From sequence record PZ386966.1: DNA of 64,000 nt; one strand, given 5' to 3'. The position numbers and the translations under genes are program-made. A model generated the notes under the pieces. That model searched no databases, was not told the origin of the DNA, and saw only the letters and a program-made list of their open reading frames with translations. The stretch comes from a phage. Positions 5,698-64,000 of this stretch are shown here, piece by piece. Numbering within the stretch: the first letter of the stretch is position 1; each line of letters starts with the position of its first letter.

Positions 5698-6801
5698 ATG
5701 TTGACTAATTCTGAAAAAAGCAGATTTTTCCTTGCTGACCTGACTGGTGAAGTCCAGTCTATCCCAAATACTTATGGGTATATTTCCAACTTAGGTCTGT
5801 TCCGTTCAGCACCAATCACCCAAACTACTTTCCTTATGGATTTGACTGATTGGGATGTTAGCTTGCTTGATGCGGTAGACCGTGATAGCCGTAAAGCAGA
5901 GACTAGCGCACCTGAGCGTGTTCGTCAAATCAGCTTCCCAATGATGTACTTCAAAGAAGTTGAAAGCATTACTCCTGATGAAATTCAGGGTGTACGTCAG
6001 CCAGGCACTGCAAACGAACTGACTACCGAAGCTGTAGTACGTGCTAAGAAGCTGATGAAGATTCGTACCAAGTTCGATATTACTCGTGAGTTCCTGTTTA
6101 TGCAAGCTCTGAAGGGTAAAGTTGTTGATGCTCGTGGTACTCTGTATGCTGACCTGTACAAGCAGTTCGACGTTGAGAAGAAGACTGTTTACTTCGACCT
6201 TGACAACCCTAATGCTGACATCGACGCTTCTATTGAAGAACTGCGTATGCACATGGAAGACGAAGCTAAGACTGGCACTGTAATCAACGGTGAAGAAATT
6301 CACGTAGTTGTTGACCGTGTATTCTTCAGCAAGCTGACTAAACACCCTAAGATTCGTGATGCCTATCTTGCACAGCAGACCCCACTGGCTTGGCAACAGA
6401 TTACTGGTTCTCTGAGAACTGGTGGTACTGACGGCGTTCAGGCTCACATGAACACTTTCTACTACGGTGGTGTTAAGTTTGTCCAGTACAACGGTAAGTT
6501 CAAAGACAAGCGTGGTAAGGTTCATACTCTGGTGAGCATTGATGGTGCTGGTGCAGAGGTTGGTGTAGGACACGCTTTCCCTAACGTTTCTATGCTGGGT
6601 GAAGCAAACAACATCTTCGAAGTGGCTTATGGCCCATGCCCTAAGATGGGTTACGCAAATACACTTGGTCAGGAACTGTATGTATTCGAATACGAAAAAG
6701 ACCGTGATGAAGGTATTGACTTCGAAGCTCACTCTTACATGCTGCCATACTGTACTCGTCCTCAGTTGCTGGTAGACGTTCGTTCTGACGCTAAAGACTA
6801 A
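5698..6801 (+). CDS. major capsid protein
   Basis: 367 aa ORF directly after protease/scaffold; strong RBS context; size and position typical; recalled similarity to lambda gpE-type capsid proteins is unverified. Confidence 0.6.
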   Translation: MLTNSEKSRFFLADLTGEVQSIPNTYGYISNLGLFRSAPITQTTFLMDLTDWDVSLLDAVDRDSRKAETSAPERVRQISFPMMYFKEVESITPDEIQGVRQPGTANELTTEAVVRAKKLMKIRTKFDITREFLFMQALKGKVVDARGTLYADLYKQFDVEKKTVYFDLDNPNADIDASIEELRMHMEDEAKTGTVINGEEIHVVVDRVFFSKLTKHPKIRDAYLAQQTPLAWQQITGSLRTGGTDGVQAHMNTFYYGGVKFVQYNGKFKDKRGKVHTLVSIDGAGAEVGVGHAFPNVSMLGEANNIFEVAYGPCPKMGYANTLGQELYVFEYEKDRDEGIDFEAHSYMLPYCTRPQLLVDVRSDAKD

Positions 6802-11255: not shown

Positions 11256-19253
<7,998 letters not shown>

Positions 19254-19255
19254 TA

Positions 19256-20422
19256 ATGGCAGTAGGTGAAATTCAAATTAGTGCCTTGCCTCAAGCAGCC
19301 TTACCAATTGACCTTAGTGATATCTTCCATCTTAAGCAGGGTATTGAGGATAAGAGATGTACTCTTGAGCAATTACTTGCTCCACACTCAAGCCTAAGAA
19401 ATAACCCCCACGGTGTTACTAAAACACAGATTGGTTTAGATAATGTTATTAATGCTCTTCAGTTAGTTGCTGCAAATAACTTATCAGACATTACTAATGT
19501 TGATGAGGCAAGAGCAAATCTACAGATTATGTCTTCAGAAGAGGTTAATAGCCTTATTCAACAGCATATTAATGATAAGAGTAATCCACACAATACAACT
19601 AAAGCACAGGTTGGTTTAAGTAATGTTCAGAACTGGACAACATCCAACCTTTATAATGAAGATGCAGATAAGTACGCTACAGCAAGAGCAGTAAATAACT
19701 TGTACAAGGCTGTTCAGGCTTCTTATCCAGTAGGTACTATCCATCTCTCTATGAATCCTGCAAACCCCTCTACATATTTAATTTGTGGAGGTACTTGGGA
19801 GTTAGTTTCAAGAGGAAGAGCACTTGTAGGTTATGATAGTGCTTCTAGGCCAGTTGGTAGTAACTTTGGCTCAAGTAGTATTAGCTTATCTAGTAACAAC
19901 CTACCATCACATAGCCATTCAATCTATCTAACTGGTGGTGGGCATACTCATGGTGCTACTATTACTATTGATGGCTTTGATTACGGCAATAAGAGCACAA
20001 ACAGTTTCGATTATGGAACAAAGACCACTAATAGCACTGGTGCTCACACCCACTCAGTGAGTGGTTCAACAAATACCACAGGTAATCACACACATACTGT
20101 AGGTGGTCGTTACGGAGGTGACTCTATTGGTGGTAAACAACGTGTTCAGGTCTCAGGGACTGCTCAGGTTTCCAGTGTAGCTGGTGACCACTCACACACT
20201 ATTAGCGGTTCAACAAATACCACAGGCAATCACCAACACACTGTTGCAATTGGTGCTCACACGCATACTGTTGCAATTGGTGCTCATACCCATAAAGGCA
20301 CAGTAACTTTGCAGTCATCTGAGCATACTCACTCAGGTACTACAGGCACTACAGGTGCTGGTCAAGCATTTAGCGTTGAACAACCATCCTTTGTGGTTTA
20401 TGTATGGCAAAGAACCGCTTAA
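19256..20422 (+). CDS. tail fibre protein with fibre repeats, collar domain and His-x-His C-terminal module
   Basis: Repeats 'NPHGVTKTQIGLDNV' and 'NPHNTTKAQVGLSNV' (phage fibre repeat type); collar-like 'YPVGTIHLSMNPANPSTYLICGGTWEL'; C-terminus full of HTH/HSH triads. Confidence 0.65.
   Translation: MAVGEIQISALPQAALPIDLSDIFHLKQGIEDKRCTLEQLLAPHSSLRNNPHGVTKTQIGLDNVINALQLVAANNLSDITNVDEARANLQIMSSEEVNSLIQQHINDKSNPHNTTKAQVGLSNVQNWTTSNLYNEDADKYATARAVNNLYKAVQASYPVGTIHLSMNPANPSTYLICGGTWELVSRGRALVGYDSASRPVGSNFGSSSISLSSNNLPSHSHSIYLTGGGHTHGATITIDGFDYGNKSTNSFDYGTKTTNSTGAHTHSVSGSTNTTGNHTHTVGGRYGGDSIGGKQRVQVSGTAQVSSVAGDHSHTISGSTNTTGNHQHTVAIGAHTHTVAIGAHTHKGTVTLQSSEHTHSGTTGTTGAGQAFSVEQPSFVVYVWQRTA
20240..20293 (+). 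repeat. 27-bp perfect-frame tandem duplication inside tail fibre gene
   Basis: 'actgttgcaattggtgctcacacgcat' followed by 'actgttgcaattggtgctcatacccat', encoding TVAIGAHTH twice. Confidence 0.8.
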
Positions 20423-20472: not shown

Positions 20473-22809
20473 ATGGCAGATTACAAGTTGAGTGAATTAA
20501 ACTCAATCGATACAATCCGTTCAGATGACCTTCTTCATGTCAGGGTTAAAAAGAGACCTGAAATGCTGGGTGATGAAGACCGTCGAATGACCTATCAAGA
20601 TTTCTTAGCATCTTTTAAGCTTGAAAGATTTGTTCAGATTGCTGGTAGTACTATGACTGGTGACTTAGGGATTGTTAAGTTACTTTATGGTGGTAAGGCA
20701 GTATTTGACCCAACAGGTTCTTCTGAGATTACTATGGGGGATGTTTTAAAGACTTTTAAACTTAATGCAAATGGTCTTAAACTAACTATTGCAGATGCTT
20801 CAAGGTCAGCAACTGTTTATCATACTCTGAATAAGCCAAGTCCTAATGAGCTTGGTATGAGAACTAATGAAGAGAATGACGCAAGATATGCAAGACTTGC
20901 TGTCACAAACACATTCTCTGGGACTCAGCAAATTCAAGGTGATGCTAACTTACTTCGCCTTAGAAACCAAAATGCAAATAATGCACAATATATTGAAGGT
21001 GTAGACCTAGATGGTTCGGCTAGATGGTGGGTCGGTATTGGTCGCAATGGCGGTGATACAGTAAACCTGTATAACAACAAATACGACTCAGCCTTGACTG
21101 TTGCAAGTAATATTTCTGTTAATAAATCTTTAGTAATCACTGGTCAAGTCCAACCCTCTGATTTCTCTAACTTAGATGCTAGATACTTTACTCAGACAGT
21201 TGCTAATCAGAGATTTGCACAGTTAGCTGGGGATAACACTTTTACAGGTGCTAATACTTTCACTAACCTTGTTGTTAAGAAGAACGCTAATGCTCTTACT
21301 TTGCAGAATACTGATGCAAGTACACCACTTTACATTCTCGGTAAGAAGTCTGATGGAACAAATAAATGGTATGTTGGTACAGATTCTGAAGATACACGTC
21401 TAAACATTTATAACTACCTTACAGGTTCGCAGGTTTCACTAGGTACAACTATTGGTATCAATAAAACCGTGCAAATCACTGGGCAGGTTCAACCCTCAGA
21501 TTTCTCTAACATTGACTCTAGATATATTCCGGCAGCAACATTAAGTACAATTGCAAGAACTAATGCTACCAACACATTCTCTGCACGACAAGTTATTAAC
21601 TCTGATGGTGAAGCTCTTGCGCTAAGAGCAAAGACTACCTCGTCATTGTTCATTAGAGGTCTTGCTTCTGATGGAACTAATAAATGGTATGTCGGTAATG
21701 GTGGTGCTAATGACGACTTAAGTCTGTTTAACTTCAAAACAGGTAAATATATTTCCGTTAGTTCATCAATCGTCATGAATGCCACTTTAGCAATCACTGG
21801 ACAGGTTCAACCCTCAGATTGGTCTAACTTAGATGCCAGATATTTTACCCAATCAGCAGCTAATCAGAAATTTATGTATGCAGGCTCTACAGGAACAGCT
21901 AGTGAAGTAGGTGATAACAAAGGTGTCGCTTGGAATGCTAAAACTGGTCTGTATAATGTTACAAGGTCTAATGGAGGTTCAACACTACTTGTTTTCCAAA
22001 TGTATCAGGGTTCAAGTTCTACTCCTTCTGCTCAATTAAAATTCGACTACAGGAATGGGGGATTTTGGTACAGGTCATCAAGGGACGGCTTTGGTTTTGA
22101 AGAGGGCTACACACAGATTTATACAGAAAAGTATAAACCAACCCCTTCAGCTATCGGTGCATACACTAAAGCAGAAACTGACCAGAAGATTGCACAGGCA
22201 GTAAGTGACTCTACAGACCTTAATAAAATCTATCCAGTAGGTATTGTAACGTGGTTTAACAGTAACGTTAACCCTAATACAGCACTTCCTGGGTTAACTT
22301 GGACGTACCTGAACAATGGTGTAGGTAGGACAATCAGGGTTGCAGCAGCTAATGGTTCAGATGTTGCTACAACTGGAGGTTCAGATTCTGTTACGTTAGC
22401 AGTTGGAAACTTACCTTCACACACTCATAGTTTCTCTGCGACAACCTCCAGCTTTGACTACGGTACTAAAACCACTAACACTACTGGTGCTCACACCCAC
22501 TCAGTGAGTGGTTCTACTAACAACACTGGTGCTCATACACATACAGTTGGTGGTCGTTATGGTGGTGACTCTATCGGTGGTAAACAACGTGTTCAGGTAT
22601 CAGGTACTAATCAGGTATCTAGCTCTGCTGGTGACCACTCACACACTGTATCTGGTACTGCTGCCTCTAACGGAAACCATGCTCACACAGTTGGTATTGG
22701 TGCTCACAGCCATACAGTGAGTGGTAACACTGGAGGTACAGGTTCTGGTTCAGCATTTAGTGTAACTAACCAGTTCTATAAGCTGATGGCTTGGGTAAGA
22801 ACTGCTTAA
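20473..22809 (+). CDS. long tail fibre protein with triplicated internal domain and His-x-His C-terminal module
   Basis: Three ~110 aa repeats each ending 'ITGQVQPSD(F/W)SN(L/I)D(A/S)RY'; collar-like 'YPVGIVTWFNSNVNPNTALPGLTWTYL'; C-terminal ~90 aa about 80% identical to the C-terminus of 19256-20422. Confidence 0.65.
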   Translation: MADYKLSELNSIDTIRSDDLLHVRVKKRPEMLGDEDRRMTYQDFLASFKLERFVQIAGSTMTGDLGIVKLLYGGKAVFDPTGSSEITMGDVLKTFKLNANGLKLTIADASRSATVYHTLNKPSPNELGMRTNEENDARYARLAVTNTFSGTQQIQGDANLLRLRNQNANNAQYIEGVDLDGSARWWVGIGRNGGDTVNLYNNKYDSALTVASNISVNKSLVITGQVQPSDFSNLDARYFTQTVANQRFAQLAGDNTFTGANTFTNLVVKKNANALTLQNTDASTPLYILGKKSDGTNKWYVGTDSEDTRLNIYNYLTGSQVSLGTTIGINKTVQITGQVQPSDFSNIDSRYIPAATLSTIARTNATNTFSARQVINSDGEALALRAKTTSSLFIRGLASDGTNKWYVGNGGANDDLSLFNFKTGKYISVSSSIVMNATLAITGQVQPSDWSNLDARYFTQSAANQKFMYAGSTGTASEVGDNKGVAWNAKTGLYNVTRSNGGSTLLVFQMYQGSSSTPSAQLKFDYRNGGFWYRSSRDGFGFEEGYTQIYTEKYKPTPSAIGAYTKAETDQKIAQAVSDSTDLNKIYPVGIVTWFNSNVNPNTALPGLTWTYLNNGVGRTIRVAAANGSDVATTGGSDSVTLAVGNLPSHTHSFSATTSSFDYGTKTTNTTGAHTHSVSGSTNNTGAHTHTVGGRYGGDSIGGKQRVQVSGTNQVSSSAGDHSHTVSGTAASNGNHAHTVGIGAHSHTVSGNTGGTGSGSAFSVTNQFYKLMAWVRTA
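20940..21850 (+). repeat. three in-frame ~330-bp direct repeats within fibre gene
   Basis: DNA motif 'atcactgg.caggt.caaccctc.gatt..tctaac' recurs near 21136, 21475 and 21793; coordinates approximate. Confidence 0.6.
22454..22725 (+). repeat. shared His-rich fibre-tip module (copy 2; copy 1 at about 20006-20300)
   Basis: Near-identical DNA and protein ('FDYGTKTTN.TGAHTHSVSGSTN.TG.HTHTVGGRYGGDSIGGKQRVQVSGT.QVSS.AGDHSHT') in both fibre genes. Confidence 0.75.
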
Positions 22810-26085: not shown

Positions 26086-26415
26086 TTAATCTGCCAACCT
26101 TAAATTGAAATTAACACCAAATTTTTCACATACTTCCAACATATACTCAAGGGAGACGTTACCAGTGAGGTGGATTATGTTGGATACACGAGCCTGAGAG
26201 ATACCACAAATTTTAGCAACTTGCTCTTGAGAAAGACCTCTGGATTTAATCTCTCTCTTAAAACGATGTGCAACGAAGTCTCTCATTTCGTCTACATCCA
26301 TTGGACAAATATAACTCTCCATTTCAGCCTCTCTATCAGCCTCCCAATCATCTTGTGGGGCATAAGGGTCAAAGACCTCATTCATCTTTCTTCTTCCGTT
26401 TGCGTGAAGTGTCAA
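26086..26415 (-). CDS. Xre-family helix-turn-helix protein
   Basis: 'LSQEQVAKICGISQARVSNIIHLTGNVSLEYM' is a classic HTH_XRE pattern; acidic N-terminus. Confidence 0.5.
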   Translation of the reverse strand: MTLHANGRRKMNEVFDPYAPQDDWEADREAEMESYICPMDVDEMRDFVAHRFKREIKSRGLSQEQVAKICGISQARVSNIIHLTGNVSLEYMLEVCEKFGVNFNLRLAD

Positions 26416-33324: not shown

Positions 33325-33350
33325 TACTGCAAAAAATTATAAAAAGCAAG

Positions 33351-33380
33351 TTGACAATGTACTTGACAAGGTGTTAATCT
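33351..33380 (+). promoter_or_regulatory. promoter candidate in divergent control region
   Basis: Two 'ttgaca' copies (33351, 33363) with a weak -10 'ttaatc' 17 bp downstream of the first. Confidence 0.3.
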
Positions 33381-33462
33381 TTGCGAAGTGGGTTTTTACT
33401 TAAAAGGTTACTTAACAGTTTAACTATACAGACACTTTAAAACTCTTAAAAGATTATTTAAT

Positions 33463-33503
33463 AGCTTTTAAAAAGCTTTAAAGTATAACGTATAGAATAC
33501 GTT
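33463..33503. promoter_or_regulatory. two palindromic operator-like sites
   Basis: 'agctttt a aaaagct' (33463-33477) and 'aacgtat aga atacgtt' (33487-33503) in the AT-rich gap between divergent operons. Confidence 0.4.
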
Positions 33504-33547
33504 AAGATAAAAGATTAAAACTTAATAGTTACTTAAAAGAGGCTTAC

Positions 33548-59562: not shown

Positions 59563-59586
59563 GGCTGCTTCGGCGGCCTTTTTTAT
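59563..59586 (+). terminator. rho-independent terminator (UUCG tetraloop)
   Basis: 'ggctgc ttcg gcggcc' plus 'ttttttattt'. Confidence 0.6.
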
Positions 59587-59614
59587 TTGTATTTTGTGCA
59601 GAGTGCTGTATAAT
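59587..59614 (+). promoter_or_regulatory. promoter candidate
   Basis: 'tttgta' then 16 bp then 'tataat' (59609-59614); contains 'tgtgcag' motif. Confidence 0.35.
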
Positions 59615-62896: not shown

Positions 62897-63682
62897 ATGG
62901 GTATTGTAAAAATCATCAATGGTGATATCTTTGCAGCATTTGATAAAGGTAAGTTTGACGTCATCGGTCACGGTTGCAACTGTATGAACCTAATGGGTGC
63001 AGGTATCGCTGATAAGATTTCTAAACTTTACCCAAAAGCATATGAGACCGATACAGAAGTTTATCTATATGCAGGCGGTATAGGTCACAAACCCTGTGAA
63101 AATTTACTGGGTAATTTCTCCGTAGCACGTTTAAAACAAGGCCGTATAGCTAACCTTTACACTCAGCTTAAGACTGGTAAAGATGCTCGATATAGTGCTT
63201 TAGAGTCATCTTTGAAACAGCTTAACAGATACTGTGAAGTCAATCAGTTGAAGAAAGTCGGGTTACCTATGATTGGTGCAGGTATCGGTGGGCTAGACCC
63301 CCAAGCCGTCACAGTTATCATCAATCAGGTGATGAAGAGTGTAGATGTGTATCTGTATGTCTATGAAGGAGAGATGTACCACAAGTTACACTCAGGTTGG
63401 GAGAACTACTGTGAACCAGAATACTTTGCAGGTGTAGCAGTGTTCACGGATAATGCAGTTACCCTCTTCAGACGAAGAAAAGGTAAGATACATCAAAGTA
63501 ACCCTCCGGTTGAAAAGATGTCTCTAAGTAACGCTCTAGTTACCCACCTGTCGAAGAGCAATCACAGAATTGCAGTAACATTTGGCAGTGATGCAGATAC
63601 TTACATCTATGCAAGAACTGATGAGGATATCGAGACAGTTTTCTCTTCGCCGGAAGTTACCTTCTTAGACGCAAAGAACTAA
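62897..63682 (+). CDS. macro-domain (ADP-ribose-binding/processing) protein
   Basis: 'INGDIF...DVIGHGCNCMNLMGAGIADKI' and 'ALESSLKQ...VGLPMIGAGIGGLDPQAV' follow the macro-domain pattern (GDI..DAIVNAAN..GGGV ... SIAFP.IGTG..G.P); ~100 aa C-terminal extension. Confidence 0.5.
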   Translation: MGIVKIINGDIFAAFDKGKFDVIGHGCNCMNLMGAGIADKISKLYPKAYETDTEVYLYAGGIGHKPCENLLGNFSVARLKQGRIANLYTQLKTGKDARYSALESSLKQLNRYCEVNQLKKVGLPMIGAGIGGLDPQAVTVIINQVMKSVDVYLYVYEGEMYHKLHSGWENYCEPEYFAGVAVFTDNAVTLFRRRKGKIHQSNPPVEKMSLSNALVTHLSKSNHRIAVTFGSDADTYIYARTDEDIETVFSSPEVTFLDAKN

Positions 63683-63763
63683 GAAACTCTGTAGAATATT
63701 CACAAGAGACTAAGCCTTTCTTATCTGGTAAATTTTTCAGGTAAGGAGGGCTTTTTTATTTCA

Positions 63764-64000
63764 GGATTGTGCAGGTAGAGTTCTGTAGAGAAATCTGTAG
63801 AGAAAATTTTGAACTCCAAAGAGAAAATTCATTTTCAAACTGTGCAGGTAATCTCCAAAGAGCTTTTTCATTTTCAAAACGTGCAGACCCCACTCAGGTC
63901 GGGCAAGAAAAATCATTTGAGAATTGTGCAGGTAGGTTTTTATAGACAGCCAGACCAACCCCTCTCCCCCTCTTACTCCCCCTCTCCCAAAGAGTCAAGA
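63764..64000. repeat. iteron-like direct repeat array plus polypyrimidine tract, running off the window edge
   Basis: 'tgtgcaggta' at 63768, 63841, 63925 (variant 'cgtgcag' at 63880); ~37-bp units 'ctccaaagag...cattttcaaa..tgtgcaggta' at 63814 and 63853; 'tctgtagag' twice; 'tccccctct' twice (63965, 63977). Confidence 0.7.

What the first reader, a model, noticed from the sequence alone, without database searches (positions are those of the whole stretch)
63683..64000. Iteron-like direct repeat array and a C-rich polypyrimidine tract at the right edge
After the last ORF the sequence becomes a patchwork of short direct repeats: 'tgtgcaggta' three times, two ~37-bp units 'ctccaaagag..cattttcaaa..tgtgcaggta', 'tctgtagag' twice, then an unusual C-rich run 'aacccctctccccctcttactccccctctccc' with 'tccccctct' repeated. 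The last bases 'ctcccaaagag' look like the start of another unit, so the array probably continues beyond the window. Such arrays are typical of replication origins, packaging/terminal repeat regions or clustered regulator sites. A 'tgtgcag' motif also appears at 59596 near a promoter candidate.
Basis: seen in the sequence. Interest (0 to 1): 0.5.

Follow-up and report, generated by a model that had tools for sequence, protein, structure and literature searches.

The report
Conserved non-coding repeat array, Felix-O1-like phage
The repeats are real: they are a non-coding array of four copies of one DNA motif, found at one locus per genome and kept in every Felix-O1-like phage examined, most likely a protein docking site such as a replication origin or regulatory site, and they are not the genome's terminal repeat.

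Summary
The window comes from a Felix O1-like phage (Felixounavirus). The region 63683-64000 is the first ~320 bp of a ~520-bp intergenic region that follows the macro-domain gene.

They resolve into four same-orientation units, ancestrally five. Each unit has an invariant two-part core, TCATTT-N7-GTGCA, preceded by an A5 or T5 run.

- The motif occurs at this locus only in the ~86-kb genome, apart from one variant copy at 59583-59600.
- Units keep their number and position in Felixounavirus, Mooglevirus and Suspvirus. Four tandem units (37-39 bp period) occur in Erwinia Kolesnikvirus phages, and at least five in a new divergent lineage.
- The array does not continue past the window edge.
- It is not coding: unit spacings break the reading frame between lineages.
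- It shows no RNA-structure signal.
- It is not the terminal repeat, which lies 4.5-6.4 kb downstream.

The C-rich tract is the window's only G-quadruplex/i-motif-type sequence and a perfect pyrimidine mirror repeat. One Felixounavirus subclade has replaced it with unrelated sequence.

Best reading: a DNA-level protein-binding array, most likely an iteron-type replication origin (about 0.35). An operator array is a close rival. I found no description of it in the searched papers. Interest is moderate.

The parts
63712..63753 (+). Rho-independent terminator of the rIIA...macro-domain gene run. Its T-run (63754-63758) doubles as the T5 run of unit 1.
   Evidence: 17-pair stem followed by a T-run. 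The same feature is found in heid and M7, and is annotated as a terminator in wV8, ASO1A and KhF records.
63756..63777 (+). Unit 1: TTATTT-CAGGATT-GTGCA-GGTA. This window has T where relatives have C at core position 2.
   Evidence: The position is conserved in 28 relatives.
63782..63805 (+). Perfect 12-nt tandem TCTGTAGAGAAA x2. It occupies the slot where Kolesnikvirus phages carry a full unit, so it is probably a degenerated fifth unit.
   Evidence: Tandem Repeats Finder, 100% match. (Erwinia phage M7 has units at 37/37/39 spacing where Felix-like phages have 73/39/45).
63814..63850 (+). Unit 2: CTCCAAAGAG-AAAAT-TCATTT-TCAAACT-GTGCA-GGTA (core at 63829-63846).
63853..63889 (+). Unit 3: CTCCAAAGAG-CTTTT-TCATTT-TCAAAAC-GTGCA-GACC (core at 63868-63885).
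63898..63934 (+). Unit 4: GTCGGGCAAG-AAAAA-TCATTT-GAGAATT-GTGCA-GGTA (core at 63913-63930).
63959..63988 (.). C-rich pyrimidine tract. It is a perfect mirror repeat, CCCTCTCCCCCTC-TTA-CTCCCCCTCTCCC (63960-63988), and the minus strand fits the canonical G-quadruplex pattern.
   Evidence: The core CCCCTCTTACTCCCC is kept in Felixounavirus, Mooglevirus and Suspvirus but is replaced in the VpaE1/AYO145A subclade.
63990..64000 (+). Start of a conserved ~100-bp non-repeat block that runs past the window edge to an AT-rich stretch and the sigma70-type promoter (TTGACT-17-TAGTAT) of the first small early gene.
59583..59600 (+). Outlying single copy of the motif (TTATTT-GTATTTT-GTGCA) directly after the rIIB terminator. 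It overlaps the -35/spacer region of a promoter whose TATAAT starts at 59609.
   Evidence: Moogle keeps TTATTT and GTGCAGG with a different N7. This could still be a chance match; about one such site per genome is expected for the relaxed pattern.

Best explanation
The region is a DNA-level protein-binding array. Four same-orientation sites (ancestrally five) sit on 37-45-bp centres. Each site has an invariant two-part core, TCATTT-N7-GTGCA, and is preceded by an A5 or T5 tract. The array lies in a non-coding gap between the terminator of the rII...macro-domain gene run and the promoter of the block of small early genes. I take it most likely to be the iteron part of the phage's replication origin. 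In that model a sequence-specific protein, probably phage-encoded and not identified here, loads cooperatively on the units. The downstream pyrimidine mirror repeat, the AT-rich stretch and the adjacent promoter would then provide the site of helix distortion or priming. What is shown: the anatomy, the restriction to one locus per genome, conservation across the subfamily, and the absence of coding, RNA-structure and terminal-repeat signals. What is inferred: that a protein binds, that it is an initiator, and any role of the C-rich tract.
For: The motif is confined to one locus in the whole ~86-kb genome. It is the only non-coding local repeat family in the window.

Across 44 units from 12 genomes, TCATTT and GTGCA are invariant (2.0 bits per position), while the N7 spacer and the inter-unit sequence vary. 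The preceding run can be either A5 or T5, which points to a duplex-shape property rather than a strand-specific RNA signal.

The number and positions of units are fixed in 28 relatives. They are kept in Mooglevirus, Suspvirus and Kolesnikvirus, and in a divergent 88-kb lineage (L184). In L184 at least five units are followed by about 150 bp of 80-88% AT sequence full of TTAACA repeats.

Nucleotide identity between Felix-like and Moogle-like arrays (70.7-75.9%) equals that of the adjacent protein-coding gene (72.6%). In all three lineages tested the least stable 50-mer lies downstream of the array.

Two dissimilar half-sites about 12 bp apart match how monomeric iteron-binding initiators contact two successive major grooves. 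That point rests on my own knowledge of Rep/iteron systems.
Against: No initiator-type gene was found. The flanking genes are a macro-domain protein and small proteins of unknown function. The replisome is T7 gp4-like (Toprim plus DnaB_C primase-helicase, family A polymerase), a type that in T7 starts from promoters without iterons (my own knowledge).

GC skew shows no inflection at the array. The only cumulative-skew minimum coincides with the AT-rich divergent region between the polymerase and primase operons at 33325-33547, which is a rival origin candidate.

Unit spacing varies by 2 bp between genera (39 against 41), so strict helical phasing is not kept. In Felix-like phages the AT-rich stretch lies about 150 bp from the last unit and doubles as the upstream region of a promoter. 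An outlying copy overlaps a promoter, which fits a transcription regulator at least as well.
Confidence: 0.35

Rival explanations
1. Operator or regulatory array. A phage or host transcription factor binds the units and controls the switch at the head of the early-gene block, for example early shut-off or insulation from read-through. The same factor would also act at the promoter downstream of rIIB.
For: The array sits exactly between a terminator and the first early promoter. The single outlying copy at 59583-59600 overlaps the -35/spacer region of a promoter with a perfect TATAAT, and Moogle keeps it with a changed spacer. An inverted half-unit lies about 70 bp upstream of the early promoter. 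The genome encodes an Xre-type helix-turn-helix regulator at 26086-26412. Felix O1 RT-PCR places the genes on either side in partly different temporal classes (PMC3185647, Table 3).
Against: The nearest unit is about 185 bp upstream of the early promoter's -35 element. The other early promoters in the block carry no copy of the motif. Xre-type dimers usually bind inverted repeats, not direct two-part sites (my own knowledge). The outlying copy could be a chance match.
Confidence: 0.27
2. DNA-entry checkpoint or boundary element, like the phage T5 injection stop signal. The array would mark the inner border of the genome end that enters first and carries the early host-takeover genes.
For: The array lies 5.9-7.6% of genome length from the right physical end, at the inner border of a block of small early genes. 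The T5 signal lies 7.9% from the left end, is a non-coding repeat region better conserved than the nearby genes, and carries DnaA boxes (bioRxiv 10.1101/866236). Kolesnikvirus and L184 units end in TGTGCATAG, CGTGCATAA or CGTGGATAG, which match the DnaA box at 7-8 of 9 positions.
Against: I found no report of two-step injection in Felix O1-like phages, and which end enters first is unknown. Felix-, Moogle- and Susp-type units (TGTGCAGGT) match the DnaA box at only 6 of 9 positions. There are no box pairs 3 bp apart and no large inverted repeats of the T5 kind. The T5 DnaA model is itself a hypothesis.
Confidence: 0.07
3. RNA-level element. The region would be transcribed as a non-coding RNA, or the C-rich tract would act as a Rho loading site that backs up the intrinsic terminator.
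For: RT-PCR for 'ORF14', which overlies the array, gave a product that peaked at 25 min in Felix O1. That assay is not strand-specific (PMC3185647, Table 3). The plus-strand RNA across 63950-63990 would be C-rich, G-poor and untranslated, which is what Rho prefers (my own knowledge).
Against: There is no Rfam match. Folding energies are no better than shuffles on either strand (z = -0.17 and +1.65). Conservation lies in fixed blocks with no compensatory changes. The interchange of A5 and T5 runs argues for a duplex property. The C tract is replaced by G-rich sequence in one subclade. No sigma70-type promoter or second terminator was found inside the region.
Confidence: 0.1
4. A small protein-coding gene, as annotated in some records: Felix O1 ORF14 and wV8 gp013 on the plus strand, and 50-130-aa ORFs on the minus strand in Moogle, Pr103Blw, EcoM2 and SB18.
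For: Open frames exist on both strands, and several annotation pipelines call them.
Against: Unit spacings of 73/39/45, 75/41/45 and 37/37/39 shift the frame between lineages. The ORFs differ in strand, frame, start codon and extent from genome to genome. The plus-strand GTG start has no ribosome-binding site. The invariant bases ignore codon position.
Confidence: 0.03
5. Terminal repeat, packaging (pac) site, or a repeat patch without function.
For: Several assemblies break at or just after the C-rich tract.
Against: The direct terminal repeat maps elsewhere, at Pr103Blw 1-581 and 87841-88421, Felix O1 12771-13339 and L013 5497-6087, and has no match in the window. The contig breaks are explained by a hard-to-assemble tract or by the start of a variable region. 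Conservation across at least four genera excludes neutral junk.
Confidence: 0.03

Closest known systems
Iteron-type replication origins (lambda ori, P1 oriR, Rep-iteron plasmids, lactococcal phage origins). The comparison rests on my own knowledge.
   Same: There are several same-orientation ~18-22-bp sites at one locus, in non-coding DNA, with an easily melted AT-rich stretch and a promoter nearby. The site is two-part, as for initiators with two DNA-binding domains.
   Different: No cognate initiator gene was found. The period of 37-45 bp is about twice that of classical iterons. DnaA-box similarity is good only in Kolesnikvirus and L184. No replication function has been tested. A C-rich mirror repeat separates the units from the AT-rich part.
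Phage T5 injection stop signal region (Davison, bioRxiv 10.1101/866236)
   Same: Both are conserved non-coding repeat regions at the inner border of an end-proximal early-gene block, 6-8% of genome length from a physical end. Both are conserved as well as or better than the neighbouring genes. DnaA-box-like elements occur in some lineages.
   Different: The T5 region is about 1.2 kb, dominated by inverted repeats and palindromes, and has paired DnaA boxes 3 bp apart. Here there are 4-5 direct units, no such pairs, and no evidence of two-step entry.
H-DNA / G-quadruplex / i-motif-forming polypurine-polypyrimidine tracts (own knowledge)
   Same: The tract is a perfect 13-nt-arm homopyrimidine mirror repeat with a 3-nt centre, and the minus strand reads G3-N3-G5-N7-G5-N3-G4.
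   Different: Only the sequence pattern was tested. The tract is dispensable in one natural subclade, and no structure formation has been shown.

Membership tests
Iteron-type replication origin | Three or more direct repeats of ~17-22 bp in the same orientation at one locus | tested here: met
   Four units with an 18-bp core, all on the plus strand, at a single locus.
Iteron-type replication origin | Adjacent AT-rich DNA-unwinding element | tested here: inconclusive
   The least stable 50-mer lies downstream of the array in three lineages, and L184 has about 150 bp at 80-88% AT. In Felix-like phages, however, it sits about 150 bp away and coincides with the upstream region of a promoter.
Iteron-type replication origin | Cognate initiator (Rep-type) gene in the genome, usually next to the iterons | tested here: not met
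   Pfam and PHROGs searches of the flanking genes find only a macro domain and families of unknown function. The replisome genes are T7 gp4-like with no Rep family. Only selected genes were scanned.
Iteron-type replication origin | Supports initiation of replication | not testable with these tools
   This needs marker-frequency analysis or a plasmid replication assay. GC skew is uninformative or negative here.
Direct terminal repeat / packaging site | The sequence lies at, and is duplicated at, the physical genome ends | tested here: not met
   The terminal repeat maps 4.5-6.4 kb downstream and is absent from the window. PMC8303462 reports the PhageTerm result for Pr103Blw; PMC4837284 reports Bal31 mapping of a 608-bp repeat in UAB_Phi87 but its position was not compared here.
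T5-type injection stop signal | Paired DnaA boxes 3 bp apart within large inverted repeats | tested here: not met
   There are no such pairs. Felix-type units match the DnaA box at 6 of 9 positions. Only weak inverted repeats were found.
T5-type injection stop signal | Located at the inner border of the first-entering ~8% of the genome, with two-step DNA transfer | not testable with these tools
   The position is compatible, at 5.9-7.6% from the right end. The entry order and any pause are unknown.
Structured non-coding RNA | Match to a known family, or stable conserved secondary structure with covariation | tested here: not met
   Rfam gives nothing near threshold. Folding z-scores are -0.17 and +1.65. 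Conservation is block-wise. No formal pair-by-pair covariation count was run.
Protein-coding gene (Felix O1 ORF14 / wV8 gp013) | Reading frame and extent conserved among relatives | tested here: not met
   Indels and unit spacings shift the frame, and the ORFs are inconsistent between lineages.

The most novel reading that the evidence does not exclude
The array is a DNA-entry checkpoint or boundary for the end-proximal early-gene block of a contractile-tailed phage. That would be a counterpart of the T5 injection stop signal, which is known only in T5-like siphoviruses. The ancestral units may have been bound by host DnaA.
Probability: 0.07. Interest if true: 0.75.

Novelty: new member of a known kind. 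Interest (0 to 1): 0.4.

Why it matters
How Felix O1-like phages start replication and time their early genes is unknown, although these phages are widely used for Salmonella typing, biocontrol and therapy. The Felix O1 genome paper says temporal regulation is not understood (PMC3185647). This array is the one conserved single-locus non-coding repeat element in the genome, so it gives a concrete 180-bp target for finding the origin or the early-gene switch and the protein that binds it. It also corrects spurious gene calls over the repeats (ORF14, gp013 and several minus-strand 'hypothetical proteins'). Finally, it flags a C-rich tract where some assemblies break.

Tried and rejected
- **Rfam:** a scan of the full intergenic region at E <= 10 gave only far-sub-threshold noise.
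- **RNA folding:** neither strand folds better than shuffles.
- **Single-unit pattern in IMG/VR:** a 15-base pattern returned mostly random contigs and was useless.
- **Two-unit pattern in IMG/VR:** it found only Ounavirinae, chance coding repeats such as tail-fibre-like SFANGA repeats, and one new lineage, L184.
- **Two-unit pattern in 185,579 bacterial and archaeal genomes:** 37 hits, none in Enterobacterales by record title, so no plasmid or prophage with a known Rep emerged. I did not inspect these hits individually.
- **Macro protein's C-terminal domain as the binder:** there is no Pfam or PDB match. The domain is missing in L184, which still has the array, so I dropped the idea.
- **DnaA boxes:** they fit only Kolesnikvirus and L184. 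The 5' half, TCATTT, keeps the wrong positions to be a DnaA box.
- **Other promoter and regulator motifs:** by eye I saw no convincing sigma54, sigmaE, CRP, LexA, IHF, Fur, ArgR or marbox match (comparison from memory). The sigma70 scanner found no promoter inside the array on either strand in Felix-like or Moogle-like phages. In M7 it flagged one weak minus-strand match (9 of 12) that overlaps the array.
- **Leftward promoter across the C tract (TTGACT-17-TAAGAG):** it lacks the -7 T and failed the scanner.
- **Literature:** the PhageMaP study of the Felixounavirus Bas63 reports no intergenic result for that phage. I found no paper describing this array or an Ounavirinae origin.

Full report
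**Identity and context**

A megablast of window 63000-64000 matches 211 phage records. Of these, 209 match over at least 80% of the query, at 90-97% identity for nearly all. All are Felix O1-like phages of Escherichia, Salmonella and Shigella. In annotated relatives, the ORF at 62897-63682 is the macro-domain 'phosphatase' gene. It is the last gene of a plus-strand run that includes rIIA and rIIB. A gap of about 500 bp follows, and then a series of small genes, each with its own promoter and terminator. The finding at 63683-64000 is the first ~320 bp of that gap.

**Observation check**

- TGTGCAGGTA is exact at 63768, 63841 and 63925 and nowhere else in the window.
- The 34-nt units at 63814, 63853 and 63898 are 82% and 68% identical, with spacings of 39 and 45.
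- TCTGTAGAGAAA is a perfect two-copy tandem at 63782-63805.
- The C-rich tract is the only canonical four-run C/G pattern in the 64 kb. Its 21 C in 32 nt equals the largest value seen in 200 shuffles.
- A whole-window scan for local direct repeats finds only this family outside coding sequence.

The prediction that the array continues beyond the window fails. In heid, Felix O1 and 26 other relatives the tract is followed by a conserved non-repeat block. After that come an AT-rich stretch, a sigma70-type promoter (TTGACT-17-TAGTAT) and the next gene.

**Anatomy**

A rho-independent terminator at 63712-63753 runs straight into unit 1. I aligned 44 units from 12 genomes, which gave the real repeat. 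It consists of:
- a purine-rich block (CTCCAAAGAG or GGTCGGGCAAG);
- a run of five A or five T;
- the invariant hexamer TCATTT;
- seven variable bases;
- the invariant pentamer GTGCA, followed by GGTA in Felix-, Moogle- and Susp-type phages and by TAG in Kolesnikvirus.

In the window the cores lie at 63756, 63829, 63868 and 63913.

Start-to-start spacings are 73/39/45 in Felixounavirus, 75/41/45 in Mooglevirus and Suspvirus, and 37/37/39 in Erwinia Kolesnikvirus. The 73-75-bp gap therefore holds a decayed fifth unit, now the TCTGTAGAGAAA tandem.

The core pattern occurs nowhere else in the window, nor in the remaining 22.5 kb of a close relative's genome. With the relaxed pattern ATTT-N7-GTGCA the whole genome has five sites: the four units and one at 59585-59600.

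**Conservation**

The intergenic region matches 289 phage records, including Citrobacter, Shigella and Erwinia phages. The gene order macro gene, array, small early genes holds in Felixounavirus, Mooglevirus, Suspvirus and Kolesnikvirus.

Between Felix-like and Moogle-like phages the array is 70.7-75.9% identical, against 72.6% for the adjacent macro gene. The conserved bases fall in fixed blocks separated by freely varying spacers.

A natural variant (EcoM2, VpaE1_ev035) has a different macro allele, a different terminator and a replaced unit 2. It still keeps units 1, 3 and 4 at 75/45 spacing.

A two-unit pattern scan of IMG/VR recovered only Ounavirinae, chance coding repeats and one divergent 88-kb contig, L184. 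That contig has a macro-only protein, at least five units of the GTGCATAG/GTGGATAG type, and then about 150 bp of 80-88% AT sequence full of TTAACA repeats. The same scan of 185,579 bacterial and archaeal genomes gave 37 hits, none in Enterobacterales by record title. I did not inspect those hits individually.

**What it is not**

It is not coding. The unit spacings are not multiples of three across lineages. Indels of 2 and 4 nt separate the genera. The open frames on both strands differ in frame, start codon and extent from genome to genome. This covers Felix O1 ORF14, wV8 gp013 and the minus-strand 'hypothetical proteins' called in Moogle, Pr103Blw, EcoM2 and SB18.

It is not a recognisable RNA. 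There is no Rfam match, and neither strand folds better than shuffled sequence (z = -0.17 and +1.65). The interchange of A5 and T5 runs is a property of the duplex, not of one strand.

It is not the terminal repeat. PhageTerm placed a 581-bp direct terminal repeat at the ends of Pr103Blw (PMC8303462). Bal31 mapping and sequencing showed a 608-bp terminal repeat in UAB_Phi87 (PMC4837284). The Pr103Blw repeat sequence maps to Felix O1 12771-13339 and to L013 5497-6087. It sits at both ends of a second record, PP886228, and has no match in the window. The array is therefore 4.5-6.4 kb inside the right physical end.

**The C-rich tract**

Positions 63960-63988 form a perfect homopyrimidine mirror repeat, with 13-nt arms and a TTA centre. 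The minus strand fits the G3+N1-7 quadruplex pattern.

The core CCCCTCTTACTCCCC is kept in three genera. A Felixounavirus subclade (VpaE1, AYO145A and others) has an unrelated, G-rich segment in its place. VpaE1_ev035 carries a palindromic insertion and a partial duplication inside the tract. The tract is therefore not indispensable.

Its role is open. Candidates are triplex or quadruplex formation, R-loop stabilisation, a Rho loading site on the plus-strand RNA, or a protein site.

One metagenomic contig ends inside the tract. The Andreotti record ends just before it with a fold-back artefact. Other assemblies stop within ~30-190 bp after it.

**Mechanism**

The well-supported statement is that this is a DNA-level, sequence-specific protein-binding array at one locus. 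I favour an iteron-type origin, with confidence 0.35. The reasons are:
- its restriction to one locus in the genome;
- the same-orientation two-part sites;
- the nearby easily melted AT-rich DNA and promoter;
- the iteron-plus-AT-repeat layout in L184.

Against this reading:
- No initiator gene was found, and the replisome is T7 gp4-like.
- GC skew has no inflection here. Its only minimum lies at the AT-rich divergent polymerase/primase region, 33325-33547.

The main rival is an operator array (0.27). It is supported by the array's position between a terminator and the first early promoter. It is also supported by the outlying copy at 59583-59600, which overlaps a promoter and is kept in Moogle with a changed spacer.

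A T5-like DNA-entry stop signal is a low-probability but interesting reading (0.07). The array lies 5.9-7.6% of genome length from the right end, at the inner border of the end-proximal early genes. In T5 the figure is 7.9% (bioRxiv 10.1101/866236). The defining paired DnaA boxes and large inverted repeats are absent.

Felix O1 RT-PCR detected RNA over 'ORF14', peaking at 25 min (PMC3185647, Table 3). The region is therefore transcribed at least by read-through, but this does not discriminate between the models.

**Novelty and verdict**

The Felix O1 genome paper lists other direct repeats and states that temporal regulation is unknown. wV8 annotates only a different repeat near the downstream promoter. 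Searches for Ounavirinae or Felixounavirus together with iterons or replication origins found no description of this array.

I class it as a new member of a known kind, namely an iteron-like cis-acting array, with its function still to be shown. Interest is moderate at 0.4. It gives a precise handle on an open question for a much-used phage group, but its form is not surprising.

Noticed in passing
window 59583-59600 (promoter TATAAT at 59609-59614): A single extra copy of the array motif (terminator, T-run, TTATTT-N7-GTGCAG) sits directly after the rIIB terminator and overlaps a promoter. It is identical in close relatives, and Moogle keeps it with a different N7. It is absent from the equivalent gap in Erwinia phage M7.
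   Followed up: partly
L136 2540-2583; L006 (Andreotti MN850610) 1-40; also L138, L148, L155, KhF1, FSL SP-010: Independent assemblies end inside the C-rich tract or within ~30-190 bp after it. The Andreotti record ends just before it with a 15-nt fold-back copy of unit 3. This suggests the tract is hard to sequence or assemble, or that a variable region starts there.
   Followed up: partly
L135, L149, L151, L156, L160 (aligned to window 63936-63990); L163 1600-1650: One Felixounavirus subclade replaces the C-rich tract with an unrelated G-rich segment (GGTGGGTGCAGGTGGGGATGTCGCC...) that contains an extra GTGCAGGT. The VpaE1_ev035 record has a palindromic insertion (GTCTCTAGAGAC) and a partial duplication inside the tract.
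   Followed up: partly
L184 463-1169 (minus strand), contig IMGVR_UViG_3300045988_063805: A divergent 88-kb Ounavirinae-like lineage has a macro-only protein of 148 aa (no C-terminal domain) with a Dam-like methyltransferase gene next to it. Its array has at least five units in two clusters, then about 150 bp of AT-rich TTAACA repeats. There are also three CATTATG repeats just after the macro gene.
   Followed up: partly
window 33325-33547: An AT-rich divergent intergenic region lies between the family A DNA polymerase gene (minus strand) and the primase-helicase operon (plus strand). It coincides with the only cumulative GC-skew minimum in the window and is an alternative origin candidate.
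   Followed up: no
L013 5497-6087 and 5881-5965 (outside the window): The direct terminal repeat of relatives lies in non-coding DNA between the converging gene blocks. It contains its own short repeats (AACTTGTTAGCTCTTGTTAGT x2). A further pair (AGGTTGTTAAGAGGGCTTGTTA) lies just beyond it at 6433-6590. These could be terminase recognition sites.
   Followed up: no
L003 5590-5640; L001 5400-5460 (downstream of the window): The small early genes are separated by cassettes in which a promoter overlaps a GC-rich stem-loop (TTTACA-GGGGCTTA...TAAGCCCC). This is the 57-bp repeat noted in the Felix O1 paper, and it recalls the promoter-stem-loop cassettes of T4-like phages. Gene content between cassettes differs among relatives.
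   Followed up: no
window 62993-63011 and 63272-63290: GTGCAGGTA also occurs twice inside the macro-domain gene, where it encodes Gly-Ala-Gly-Ile in two glycine-rich loops. The TCATTT half of the array motif is absent at both sites, so I take this as a coding coincidence.
   Followed up: yes
L003 5019-5040 (about 30-50 bp beyond the window edge): The conserved block after the C tract contains an inverted, partial copy of the left half of a unit (TTGAAAAATAATTCTTGA, 73% complementary to CAAAGAGAAAATTCATTTTCAA). It is almost unchanged between Felix-like and Moogle-like phages.
   Followed up: no
window 20037-20283: Direct repeats of 64 nt and 27 nt lie within coding sequence (ORF 20473-22809 starts just downstream). 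They match the repeats the Felix O1 paper reports in genes 76 and 77.
   Followed up: no
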